Positions 2,156-2,310 of a stretch of 11,196 bases of DNA are shown piece after piece. The translations under genes and the position numbers were made by a program. This DNA comes from a virus. Its lineage: Duplodnaviria > Heunggongvirae > Uroviricota > Caudoviricetes. A model generated the notes under the pieces. That model worked only from the letters and a program-made list of their open reading frames with translations. It searched no databases and was not told where the DNA came from. The stretch is from the IMG/VR virus record IMGVR_UViG_2541047814_000003, positions 1 through 11,196 of that record; one strand, 5' to 3'. How positions within the stretch are numbered: the stretch's first letter is position 1; every line of letters begins with the position of its first letter.

Positions 2156-2310
2156 TAATACACCAACTTAATTACTGCTTCAGGTTGGTGTATTGCTTGC
2201 ATCTTTCCCTTTTTATTCATAAAGATAGAGCAAACAACAAAACCACCACCACCCCCCTGAAAAGGCTCATAAATAGCGAAAAACCGCGAGGTCGCCGCCC
2301 CGTAACGGGC
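2156..2310 (-). other. Lambda-type cos site: cosN 12-mer GGGCGGCGACCT (plus coords 2289-2300, minus strand) plus putative cosB up to the TerS start
   Basis: Minus-strand TTACGGGGCGGCGACCTCGCGGTTTTTCGCTATTTATGA matches the recalled lambda left-end sequence with one mismatch, then diverges; 11-bp inverted repeat AATACACCAAC (2162-2172) / GTTGGTGTATT (2189-2199) lies just upstream of the TerS start. Confidence 0.8.

What the first reader, a model, noticed from the sequence alone, without database searches (positions are those of the whole stretch)
2156..2310. Exact lambda cosN with conserved proximal flank but diverged cosB next to a satellite TerS
The minus strand carries GGGCGGCGACCT plus about 22 further bases nearly identical to the lambda left end, after which the sequence diverges (G/T-rich tract, then an 11-bp inverted repeat at 2162-2199). 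That pattern suggests the helper large terminase can still cut, while recognition is shifted to the satellite's own Nu1-like TerS, a plausible packaging-redirection mechanism.
Basis: partly seen in the sequence, partly recalled or inferred. Interest (0 to 1): 0.8.

Follow-up and report, generated by a model that had tools for sequence, protein, structure and literature searches.

The report
Phage-satellite cos site with own TerS
This is the DNA-packaging site of a known type of E. coli phage satellite (an EcCIIHE3034-like PICI): it keeps the cutting signals of lambda-like helper phages but carries its own recognition box and its own small terminase, which most likely diverts the helper's packaging enzyme onto satellite DNA.

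Summary
The minus strand carries the exact lambda cohesive-end sequence at 2300-2289, and 21 of the next 22 bases match lambda. Similarity to lambda ends near +45. The inverted repeat is real but lies at 2157-2167/2184-2194, not 2162-2199.

The window is an allele of the catalogued satellite EcCIIHE3034: same cspD-clpS att core, TerS 96% identical. Its sister EcCICFT073 has rppA in the same slot.

- The G/T tract TGGTGGTGGTTTTGTTGTT (+50..+68) is invariant in E. coli relatives. It survives in satellites whose TerS is only 57-59% identical, and it resembles N15's mapped R3.
- TerS is a mosaic: an N15-type DNA-binding domain joined to a C-terminal part closest to E. coli lambdoid phages.
- Two helper-embedded satellites with identical capsid proteins differ only downstream of cosN. 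One has terS plus this box. The other has no terS and a helper-like R3-R2-R1.

The island has no TerL. A satellite TerS paired with helper TerL is therefore the likeliest mechanism, though it is untested. This is a new variant of known kinds (Rpp-type PICIs, pac-SaPI TerS). Interest is moderate.

The parts
2333..2355 (-). Terminator-like hairpin (GGCCGGA-GAAA-TCCGGC followed by T6). It lies just after the stop of the 137-aa ORF, and its T run continues into cosQ.
   Evidence: RNA fold gives -16.9 kcal/mol, z = -2.4. It is present in 4 of 6 E. coli relatives and absent where the upstream gene differs.
2324..2330 (-). cosQ core GGGTCCT at -30..-24, the same distance from cosN as in lambda. In lambda this is the packaging-termination element.
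   Evidence: Ungapped comparison with the lambda right end. It is invariant in all satellites and helper phages aligned.
2289..2300 (-). cosN cohesive-end sequence GGGCGGCGACCT, identical to lambda. The predicted left end of packaged satellite DNA is at 2300.
   Evidence: Single exact match in the window; alignment to lambda.
2256..2288 (-). cosN-proximal flank +13..+45, nearly identical to lambda up to +34 (21 of 22). This corresponds to the right cosN half-site and the I2 region.
   Evidence: The segment CGCTATTTATGA is invariant in satellites and helper phages.
2233..2251 (-). Candidate R3-type TerS binding box TGGTGGTGGTTTTGTTGTT (+50..+68), at the position of lambda R3 (bp 50-65) and N15 R3 (bp 48-60).
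   Evidence: Invariant in 6 E. coli terS islands. Conserved as GGTGGTGGTGTTGTTGTT/ATT in satellites with 57-59% TerS while the flanks diverge. Resembles N15 R3, GAGGTTGTTGTTT. Replaced by a lambda-like R3 in the terS-less sister satellite.
2215..2229 (-). Conserved A/T-rich block TCTATCTTTATGAAT (+72..+86), located between the two boxes where lambda has its IHF site I1. Function unknown.
   Evidence: Nearly invariant in alignment A1. By eye I found no good match to the IHF consensus.
2183..2195 (-). Inverted R3-like box CAATACACCAACC (+106..+118), at the position of lambda R2.
   Evidence: Invariant in 6 E. coli islands. It is the best inverted match to each lineage's own R3 in 5 of 7 terS-type sequences, always at +106: 9 of 13, and 11 of 13 in L024 with 0 of 2000 shuffles reaching that.
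2157..2167 (-). Second arm of the inverted repeat, GTTGGTGTATT (+134..+144). It abuts the terS start codon and overlaps the Shine-Dalgarno position.
   Evidence: It is degenerate in 94-3024, Z1323 and MB57, and absent in helper-embedded satellites. The hairpin is stable only in this subfamily: z = -3.6 here against +0.85 and -1.0.
1613..2155 (-). Satellite terS, 180 aa, Nu1/gp1 family. It has an N15-type winged-helix DNA-binding domain and a C-terminal assembly/TerL-binding part related to E. coli lambdoid phages.
   Evidence: The start at M1 is conserved across lineages.
2361..4189 (-). Upstream morphogenesis genes of the same module: lambda E-like capsid (3134-4189), D-like decoration protein (2787-3122), and a 137-aa protein resembling the C-terminal (Nu3/scaffold-like) end of head protease C (2361-2774).
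   Evidence: Pfam and PHROG hits.
92..102 (-). att core ATGATAGTTAT of the island (clpS-side end). It places cos and terS inside an integrated element of about 11.3 kb whose integrase starts at 11196.
   Evidence: att sequence and site from the supplement of PMC6092414; flanking genes in relatives.

Best explanation
The region is the cos packaging site of an EcCIIHE3034-type phage-inducible chromosomal island, together with its cognate small-terminase gene.

The parts read by a helper's large terminase are kept in lambda form: the cosN nicking site with its flanks, and cosQ for termination. The TerS-binding part (cosB) is a different, satellite-specific set of boxes. These are an N15-like R3 at +50..+68, and probably an inverted second box at +106..+118 laid out as in lambda's R3-I1-R2.

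The island encodes a full-length Nu1-type TerS. Its DNA-binding domain is of the N15 type and matches those boxes. Its C-terminal part resembles the TerS of E. coli lambdoid phages. The island has no TerL.

Inferred mechanism: after induction by a lambdoid helper, satellite TerS binds the satellite cosB and recruits helper TerL through its C-terminal domain. TerL nicks cosN at 2289-2300, and satellite concatemers are packaged from there (leftwards in window coordinates) until a downstream cosQ/cosN. This would not need the helper's TerS, and it would compete with the helper for TerL.

Shown: sequence anatomy, homologies, conservation, and co-segregation of box type with terS. Inferred: binding, the TerS-TerL pairing, cutting, interference, and helper identity (PhiR5_1/PhiR12-like phages are the best candidates).
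For: 1. Lambda-type cosQ, cosN and flank at lambda spacing.

2. There is no lambda R box. Instead, TGGTGGTGGTTTTGTTGTT is invariant in six E. coli islands at four different att sites. It is retained in Citrobacter/Enterobacter helper-embedded satellites whose TerS is 57-59% identical, while the surrounding spacers diverge.

3. N15's experimentally mapped R3 (bp 48-60, per PMC9026076) reads GAGGTTGTTGTTT. The satellite TerS DNA-binding domain is 63% identical to N15 gp1, against 40% to lambda.

4. TerS is a mosaic.
- The N-terminal 66 aa hit only N15-type and Pseudomonas phages.
- The C-terminal 114 aa hit E. coli lambdoid phages best (PhiR5_1 61.7%, PhiR12 52.5%).
- PhiR5_1's cosQ-to-cosN stretch is letter-for-letter that of the IHE3034 allele (read), but its cosB is lambda-like.

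5. Across satellite lineages the DNA-binding domain stays 71-100% identical, while the C-terminal 48 aa range from 33 to 96%.

6. Natural swap. Satellites L020 and L026 have 100% identical capsid proteins, a 95% identical upstream gene and the same cosQ/cosN. L020 has terS plus the GGTGG/GTTGTT box. L026 has no terS and a lambda/helper-like R3-R2-R1 resembling the helper's own cos on the same contig.

7. No TerL or portal lies between attR and int. The largest ORF is the primase.

8. The cos+terS unit is present at 80% coverage or more in 763 of 5,426 complete E. coli genomes, with an intact ORF.
Against: There is no experimental evidence.

[quoted passage not shown] So function and helper are unproven.

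The TerL-binding-equivalent C-terminus is only 27% identical to lambda Nu1 and 35% to N15 gp1, so lambda itself may not be a helper.

The similarity of the second box to R3 is weak in single sequences (shuffle P about 0.1).

The helper shown in L026 is a close relative of L020's helper (same insertion site, head decoration protein about 95% identical). It is not L020's own helper, whose cos lay outside the DNA I could fetch.

The structure model is of low confidence (pLDDT 65), and its fold search was uninformative.
Confidence: 0.7

Rival explanations
1. Rpp-like mode. The satellite TerS does not replace the helper's TerS but forms mixed oligomers with it. Both proteins are needed, and the helper's TerS supplies the contact to TerL, as in EcCICFT073.
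For: The gene sits in the slot that rppA occupies in EcCICFT073, directly after cos. Its C-terminal TerL-binding-equivalent region is only 23-35% identical to lambda, phage-4 and N15 TerS. Nu1-family proteins oligomerise through their central helices, and that region is 36-45% identical to phage TerS.
Against: The protein is full length and aligns with Nu1 to the C-terminus, including the region that Rpp proteins lack. Rpps are 135-153 aa and are said to lack a TerL-binding domain (PMC9026076). The satellite TerS has no detectable sequence similarity to RppA. Its C-terminal two thirds are 62% identical to a real phage TerS.
Confidence: 0.12
2. Mimicry rather than redirection. The true helper is an undescribed lambdoid phage whose own TerS and cosB are of this same N15-like type. 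The satellite simply copies its helper's whole cos, and its terS is a spare copy.
For: Some satellites do copy the helper's cosB: L026, and 11capE per PMC10111431. N15-type phages with a similar R3 and DNA-binding domain exist in enterobacteria.
Against: None of the 50,697 phage records matches the window beyond +46. No phage TerS exceeds 47% identity overall. N15-type phages have a different cohesive end, GGGCGGCGTCCG. The prophage type that hosts embedded terS-type satellites has a lambda-like cosB and DNA-binding domain.
Confidence: 0.1
3. Inactive relic. The cos and terS are leftovers of a decayed lambdoid prophage and no longer work in packaging.
For: Transfer of the IHE3034 and 18098 islands was not seen with their resident prophages. 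The window's SSB gene looks truncated (80 aa, against the 411-nt gene annotated in relatives).
Against: The gene order is that of a PICI: int, alpA, primase, capsid, terS, with no lysis or tail genes. The non-coding stretch between cos and terS is conserved at 90% mean column identity across islands at four att sites, with invariant boxes. The terS ORF is intact in hundreds of genomes.
Confidence: 0.05

Closest known systems
EcCIIHE3034 / EcCI18098 (Gram-negative PICIs listed in Fillol-Salom et al. 2018, PMC6092414)
   Same: Same integration site (cspD-clpS) and att core ATGATAGTTAT, and a 412-aa integrase. Same gene order. TerS is 96% identical and the cos-terS spacer is nearly identical. The paper states that these two islands 'encode TerS'.
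   Different: Only allelic differences. In the texts I could search, the paper does not describe a cos site or a packaging mechanism for these islands, and it reports no transfer by resident prophages.
EcCICFT073 and its Rpp system (PMC6739421; analysis of cos-PICI in PMC9026076)
   Same: Same island architecture: E-like capsid, D-like decoration protein, 137-aa gene, cos, a packaging-specificity gene, and a 93-aa gene. Same principle: cosQ and cosN like lambda, cosB different, and an island protein with a Nu1-like DNA-binding fold encoded just downstream.
   Different: rppA (144-aa ORF in CFT073, listed as 135 aa in the paper) has no detectable sequence similarity to the window's TerS. It lacks the C-terminal TerL-binding region and works as a heterodimer with the helper's TerS, which is essential. 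CFT073 has a second, inverted cos; the window has one. The CFT073 R3 candidate is ACCACCACC at +55..63, which is the reverse complement of the window's GGTGGTGGT (read).
pac-type SaPIs (SaPI1, SaPIbov1) with their own TerS
   Same: The satellite encodes a TerS homologue that pairs with the helper's TerL and directs packaging to the satellite's own recognition site (as summarised in PMC6092414 and PMC6739421).
   Different: Those are headful (pac) systems in Gram-positive cocci, with an unrelated TerS family and a separate inhibitor (Ppi) of phage TerS. Here the system is cos-type: the cut site must stay compatible with helper TerL, so only cosB is private.
Phage N15 cos and gp1 (TerS)
   Same: It is the closest phage TerS (46.6% overall; DNA-binding domain 63%). 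It has the same short wing and lacks lambda's 11-residue insertion. The R3 box GAGGTTGTTGTTT at bp 48-60 resembles the satellite box.
   Different: The N15 cohesive end is GGGCGGCGTCCG. N15 has its own TerL, and its TerS C-terminus is 81% identical to lambda's but only 35% to the satellite's. N15 is described as having R3 only plus a remote site (my recollection of Feiss et al. 2015, not checked here). The satellite seems to keep a lambda-like R3-spacer-inverted-box layout.
Helper-embedded PICIs (11capE type, PMC10111431)
   Same: The nearest non-E. coli relatives of the window's TerS (57-59%) sit in satellites inserted in the capsid gene E of lambdoid prophages. They have the same capsid-decoration-cos-terS module.
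   Different: The published 11capE is said to lack terS and to share 258 bp of cos with its helper. The terS-bearing embedded satellites seen here have the private cosB. The window's island is chromosomal, not embedded.
cos-type SaPIbov5 and P4
   Same: Both are satellites packaged from a cos site by the helper's terminase.
   Different: As summarised in PMC6092414, both carry the helper phage's cos sequence; that they encode no TerS is from my own knowledge. Size redirection is by Ccm or Sid.

Membership tests
lambda-type cos site | 12-nt cohesive-end sequence GGGCGGCGACCT with conserved flanking half-sites (cosN) | tested here: met
   Exact at 2300-2289; -6..+34 matches lambda at 39 of 40.
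lambda-type cos site | cosQ (GGGTCCT) about 30 bp upstream of cosN | tested here: met
   2330-2324, i.e. -30..-24, in the same register as lambda.
lambda-type cos site | cosB made of lambda R3, R2 and R1 boxes (CGTTTCC-type) and IHF site I1 | tested here: not met
   No similarity to lambda beyond +45. The box at +50..+68 is GGTGGTGGTTTTGTTGTT. Lambda-type boxes are seen in helper phages and in the terS-less satellite at the same positions.
lambda-type cos site | Lies immediately upstream of the small-terminase gene | tested here: met
   terS starts 146 bp after the first base of the cohesive end. In lambda the distance is 191 bp and in N15 it is 89 bp.
lambda-type cos site | Cut by terminase in vivo to give 12-nt 5' overhangs | not testable with these tools
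   Needs sequencing of virion DNA ends.
Nu1/gp1 small terminase (Pfam PF07471) | Profile match above the curated cut-off and end-to-end homology to Nu1 | tested here: met
   81.1 bits against a cut-off of 30. PHROG 57 at 1.9e-52. 34% identity to Nu1 over residues 6-166, E = 2e-33.
Nu1/gp1 small terminase (Pfam PF07471) | N-terminal winged helix-turn-helix DNA-binding domain | tested here: inconclusive
   The predicted secondary structure (strand, two helices, two-strand wing, helix) fits, but pLDDT is about 70 there and 65 overall, and Foldseek gave no significant hit. The profile search puts lambda TerS 1-98 (6hn7_B) on top at E = 0.0055.
Nu1/gp1 small terminase (Pfam PF07471) | Encoded next to, and working with, a cognate TerL (gpA) | tested here: not met
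   There is no TerL-like ORF anywhere in the island. This is what makes it a satellite TerS.
Gram-negative PICI (EcCI type) | int, alpA, primase/replicase, then a morphogenesis/packaging module, all in one direction; about 10-15 kb; flanked by att repeats; no lysis or tail genes | tested here: met
   Integrase, AlpA, D5-type primase, capsid E, decoration protein D and TerS are all on the minus strand. att core at 92-102. The island is about 11.3 kb by comparison with L003 and L018.
Gram-negative PICI (EcCI type) | Induced, replicated and transferred at high frequency by a helper phage | not testable with these tools
   The published attempt with IHE3034 and 18098 resident prophages was negative.
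Rpp (redirecting phage packaging) proteins | Homology to RppA/B/C; 135-153 aa; no TerL-binding C-terminus | tested here: not met
   No BLASTP alignment to CFT073 RppA. No RppC chain among the PDB hits. The protein is 180 aa and aligns with Nu1 to the end.
capsid-forming PICI (cfPICI) | Own TerL, portal, protease and head-tail connectors in addition to capsid and TerS | tested here: not met
   Only capsid, decoration protein, a scaffold-like fragment and TerS are present.
N15-type cos | N15 cohesive end GGGCGGCGTCCG, with R3 GAGGTTGTTGTTT at 48-60 read by a gp1-type DNA-binding domain | tested here: inconclusive
   The box and the DNA-binding domain resemble N15. The cohesive end is lambda's, not N15's.

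The most novel reading that the evidence does not exclude
cosB plus terS is a portable specificity cassette that recombines at cosN among enterobacterial satellites. Its TerS is a chimera: a conserved N15-type DNA-binding domain reads a private box, and it is fused to a fast-evolving C-terminal domain that is re-tuned to whichever lambdoid TerL is being parasitised. This would give satellites a packaging channel orthogonal to the helper's own, without needing (or while excluding) helper TerS. It would be a third, undescribed cos-hijacking strategy, beside copying the helper's cos and Rpp.
Probability: 0.5. Interest if true: 0.6.

Novelty: new variant of a known kind. Interest (0 to 1): 0.45.

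Why it matters
About one complete E. coli genome in seven carries this cos+terS unit, including O157:H7 and extra-intestinal pathogenic strains. Yet the only worked-out packaging mechanism for E. coli PICIs is Rpp.

If the satellite TerS pairs directly with helper TerL, several things follow.
- It explains how a second large class of PICIs is mobilised.
- It predicts their helper range from the TerS C-terminus and TerL N-terminus.
- It provides natural matched pairs (same cosN, different cosB and DNA-binding domain) for studying how Nu1-type TerS positions TerL at cosN.
- It offers an orthogonal cos/TerS pair for cosmid-like delivery vectors.

Tried and rejected
1. A scan of GTDB species-representative genomes with the satellite TerS alignment found no relative. 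Close relatives are confined to E. coli/Shigella, whose representative genome evidently lacks the island.

2. phmmer of TerS against PDB sequences gave only noise. The profile version gave weak hits to lambda TerS. Foldseek with the AF2 model (pLDDT 65) gave nothing significant; the MerR-type winged-helix hits had E > 0.1. I therefore draw no structural conclusion beyond secondary structure.

3. I tested the inverted repeat as a conserved RNA or DNA hairpin and rejected that. It is stable only in the window's subfamily. The distal arm varies without compensation while the proximal arm is invariant.

4. A second copy of TTGTTGTT-N8-CTTTATGA at 408-431 looked like a remote TerS site. It occurs only in islands sharing the clpS-side end, including a terS-less one (L004). 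It is absent from IHE3034, O157 and 94-3024, so it is not linked to terS.

5. The sigma-70 promoter scan found no promoter for terS between cos and the gene. The terminator scan flagged only cosN's own symmetry.

6. I could not reach the helper's own cos in the contig of the terS-bearing embedded satellite L020 because of the 10-kb flank limit. I used a near-identical prophage (L026), found through its head decoration protein.

8. Literature searches for a described cos-type PICI TerS mechanism found none in the open-access library. Subscription-only papers are not covered. A search for a paper on the PhiR phages also found nothing.
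Full report
**1. The observation**

The minus strand reads ...TTTTTTACGGGTCCTTCCTGGAATTATGGCCCGTTACG|GGGCGGCGACCTCGCGGTTTTTCGCTATTTATGAGCCTTTTCAGGGGGGTGGTGGTGGTTTTGTTGTTTGCTCTATC....

- The 12-nt lambda cohesive-end sequence occurs once, exact, at 2300-2289.
- Anchored on it without gaps, lambda and the window agree at 10, 9, 10 and 7 of 10 bases in the first four decades, and at chance level from +41 on.
- Upstream, GTTACG and the block TTTACGGGTCCTT also agree, at the same distance as in lambda. That block contains cosQ, GGGTCCT, at -30..-24.
- blastn against 50,697 phage genomes aligns only window 2337-2255 to the cos regions of 81 lambdoid phages (about 80% identity, E down to 1e-12). 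It aligns nothing beyond +46.

**2. What the element is**

All long ORFs are on the minus strand:

| Feature | Coordinates |
|---|---|
| Tyrosine integrase | 9958-11196 |
| AlpA | within 9339-9635 |
| DUF4222 protein | 7663-7962 |
| D5-type primase | 5849-7681 |
| SSB | 5077-5319 |
| PerC | 4650-5018 |
| Lambda E-like capsid protein | 3134-4189 |
| Lambda D-like decoration protein | 2787-3122 |
| 137-aa protein resembling the C-terminal, scaffold-like end of the head protease | 2361-2774 |
| cos | 2324-2330 (cosQ) and 2289-2300 (cosN) |
| 180-aa Nu1-family protein | 1613-2155 |
| Conserved 93-aa ORF | 1320-1601 |

There is no TerL, portal, tail or lysis gene.

In complete E. coli genomes the nearest relatives lie between cspD and clpS. 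The 2018 catalogue of Gram-negative PICIs lists EcCIIHE3034 at exactly this site, with att core ATGATAGTTAT and a 412-aa integrase. That core is at window 92-102. The IHE3034 island has the same gene order, a TerS 96% identical, and a nearly identical cos-terS spacer. The window is therefore an allele of a catalogued PICI.

The paper notes that the IHE3034 and 18098 islands 'encode TerS', unlike CFT073 and O42, and that they were not transferred by their resident prophages. SatelliteFinder's PICI model likewise lists a capsid gene and a small terminase as core components.

**3. Comparison with the characterised sister island**

EcCICFT073 (L009) has the same capsid, decoration, 137-aa and 93-aa genes. 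Between cos and the 93-aa gene it carries rppA (144-aa ORF) and a second, inverted cos.

For that island, published work establishes the following (PMC6739421; PMC9026076):
- cosQ and cosN resemble lambda, while cosB is unrelated.
- Rpp, a protein with a Nu1-like DNA-binding fold but no TerL-binding C-terminus, heterodimerises with the helper's TerS and retargets it to the island's cosB.
- The helper's TerS is indispensable.

The window's protein is not an Rpp. It shows no BLASTP similarity to RppA. It aligns with lambda Nu1 from residue 6 to 166 (34% identity, E = 2e-33).

What is different here is the protein placed next to it.

**4. The cosB of the terS-type islands**

I aligned the cos-terS spacer from six E. 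coli islands integrated at four different sites: clpS/cspD, phoQ, caiT region and rcnR/thiM. Mean column identity is 90%. The invariant blocks are:
- cosQ, and cosN with its flank
- TGGTGGTGGTTTTGTTGTT (+50..+68)
- TCTATCT.TATGAAT (+72..+86)
- CAATACACCAACCTGAA (+106..+122)

It reads GTGGGGATATT in two islands and GTTGTGGTATC in a third, while the proximal arm never changes. The hairpin is stable only in the window's subfamily: z = -3.6, against +0.85 and -1.0 elsewhere. The distal arm abuts the start codon, where more distant relatives have GAGG, so it overlaps the ribosome-binding site.

The database search for TerS relatives shows a gap between the E. coli proteins (75% or more) and a 57-60% group from Citrobacter, Enterobacter and other Enterobacteriaceae. 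The contigs of that group show satellites with the same capsid-decoration-cos-terS module, inserted in the capsid gene E of lambdoid prophages. These are helper-embedded PICIs of the kind described in PMC10111431.

Their spacers have diverged almost everywhere, but they keep four elements at the same positions: cosQ, cosN, GGTGGTGGTGTTGTTGTT (or ATT), and a version of CAATACACCCAC. This is a phylogenetic footprint. The G/T tract sits where lambda has R3 (bp 50-65) and where N15's R3 was mapped by linker scanning (bp 48-60). The N15 box reads GAGGTTGTTGTTT.

I searched each sequence downstream of +70 with its own +51..+63 13-mer. The best match was at +106 in inverted orientation in five of seven terS-type sequences: 9 of 13, and 11 of 13 in L024, where no shuffle out of 2000 reached that score. 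Single-sequence P values are otherwise only about 0.1.

That position and orientation are those of lambda R2, and the conserved A/T-rich block lies where lambda has I1. My reading is that the satellite cosB keeps lambda's R3-spacer-inverted-R2 layout with different box sequences. The first box is well supported. The second is tentative.

**5. TerS is a mosaic that fits the model**

By region, identity of the satellite TerS to phage proteins is as follows:

| Region | vs N15 gp1 | vs lambda Nu1 | Lambda vs N15 |
|---|---|---|---|
| DNA-binding domain | 63% | 40% | 33% |
| TerL-binding-equivalent C-terminus | 35% | 27% | 81% |

- The satellite TerS shares N15's short form, lacking lambda's 11-residue insertion.
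- tblastn with the N-terminal 66 residues finds only N15-type and Pseudomonas phages.
- tblastn with the C-terminal 114 residues finds E. coli lambdoid phages first: PhiR5_1 at 61.7% and PhiR12 at 52.5%.
- PhiR5_1's cosQ-to-cosN stretch (GGGTCCTTTCCGGCATATGGACCCGTTACGGGGCGGCGACCT) is letter-for-letter that of the IHE3034 allele, but it has lambda-like R boxes.
- PhiR5_1's TerL is 64% identical to lambda gpA over the first 161 residues, and much of the difference falls in the first 35 or so, the part that in lambda binds Nu1.
- Among satellite lineages, the DNA-binding domain stays 71-100% identical, in step with the conserved box. The C-terminal 48 residues fall to 33-40%. That is what one expects if this end is matched to different helpers' TerL.

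**6. A natural swap**

I used the helper's head decoration protein as a handle and obtained a contig (L026) that holds both a lambdoid prophage's own cos-Nu1-A and an embedded satellite.

- That satellite has a capsid protein 100% identical, and an upstream gene 95% identical, to those of the terS-bearing satellite L020. It has the same cosQ and cosN.
- It has no terS. From just after cosN it carries lambda-type boxes: R3 TGCCGTTTCTGTTCTTCTT, R2 AAAGAAAGGAAGTGG and R1 GCCGTTTCCTTTCTTC. These resemble the prophage's own boxes on the same contig.

So, in one genetic background, the private box travels with terS and the helper-like boxes go with its absence, and the junction lies at cosN.

One caveat applies. 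L026's prophage is a close relative of L020's helper, not its actual helper, whose cos I could not reach.

**7. Mechanism and its standing**

Shown:
- TerL-read elements are conserved.
- A private, conserved box lies at the R3 position.
- The TerS is full length with a matching type of DNA-binding domain and a phage-like C-terminus.
- The island has no TerL.
- Box type co-segregates with terS.
- The unit is widespread: 763 of 5,426 complete genomes carry at least 80% of it.

Inferred:
- Satellite TerS binds +50..+120, recruits helper TerL, and TerL nicks at 2289-2300.
- Concatemers are then packaged towards terS and round the element to the next cos.
- With about 11.3 kb per unit, four units (about 45 kb) would fill a lambda-sized head. 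This is my arithmetic, by analogy with the multimer packaging reported for EcCICFT073.
- Whether the E/D/scaffold genes make small heads is unknown.

I give this model 0.7. The rivals are an Rpp-like heteromer with helper TerS (0.12), mimicry of an unknown helper with the same cosB (0.10), and an inactive relic (0.05).

**8. Novelty**

The element is known, and so is the principle of a private cosB next to lambda-type cosN. A satellite TerS that hijacks TerL is known for pac-type SaPIs.

I did not find the following described in the searchable literature: this cos site, its N15-like box, the mosaic TerS, or the swap of cosB with terS. The library holds open-access papers only, so this absence is not proof.

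I rate it a new variant of a known kind, of moderate interest. A specialist would find it expected rather than surprising. It does give precise, cheap experiments and candidate helpers.

Noticed in passing
window 103-1320: About 1.2 kb between the last ORF and the att core has no convincing gene but is full of direct repeats: five copies of a 31-nt unit at 883-1326, and 51-60-nt repeats at 835-958 versus 1146-1268. Relatives differ in how much of it they share (query starts of 295, 542, 715 and 1058).
   Followed up: no
window 2333-2355 (minus strand): A strong terminator-like hairpin with a T6 run ends exactly where cosQ begins. If it works, terS is not simply read through from the capsid operon, yet no sigma-70-like promoter was found between cos and terS.
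   Followed up: partly
L004 4440-5060 (E. coli SCU-172, same att site): In an island about 95% identical to the window, terS is replaced by a rearranged segment with a fragment of an rpp 3' end. It is bracketed by two cos sites in opposite orientation. One of them carries GGGGGTGGTTGTTGTTTAATTG, an even closer match to N15's R3. CFT073's second cos is also inverted.
   Followed up: partly
L009 7600-7625 versus window 2242-2250: The R3 candidate proposed for Rpp-type islands (ACCACCACC at +55..63) is the reverse complement of the window's GGTGGTGGT at +51..59. It is the same 9-mer at nearly the same place in the opposite orientation (read). Chance or common origin was not assessed.
   Followed up: no
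L024 about 1240-1400 (metagenome contig, TerS 75% identical): This lineage keeps the box (TGGTGGGCGTGTTGTTGTT) and the inverted box (11 of 13), but has a different cohesive-end sequence, GGGCGTCAGCGT. This suggests the cassette also works with helpers that have another cosN.
   Followed up: no
L022 10515-12040 and L023 9324-10849: Some satellites with a 55-57% TerS carry homologues of lambda tail genes Z and I directly after terS.
   Followed up: no
window 5077-5319 and 8282-9328: The SSB ORF is only 80 aa here, against a 411-nt gene in relatives. A 348-aa ORF spans a stretch that relatives annotate as several small genes, Icd-like among others. There may be frameshifts or fusions in this allele.
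   Followed up: no
window 2361-2774: The 137-aa protein upstream of cos matches only the last 70 or so residues of head-maturation-protease profiles (PHROG 53, positions 495-567 of 583). That suggests a Nu3-like scaffold remnant. In other lineages the same slot holds a 127-aa AlpA-like HTH protein instead.
   Followed up: no
L020 3213-4088 and 10540-12254; L011 4559-5916: Helper-embedded satellites carry likely anti-phage cargo around the packaging module. The Pfam domains seen are TIR-domain (CAP12-PCTIR), GmrSD_N plus HEPN, and FRG/DUF3892.
   Followed up: no
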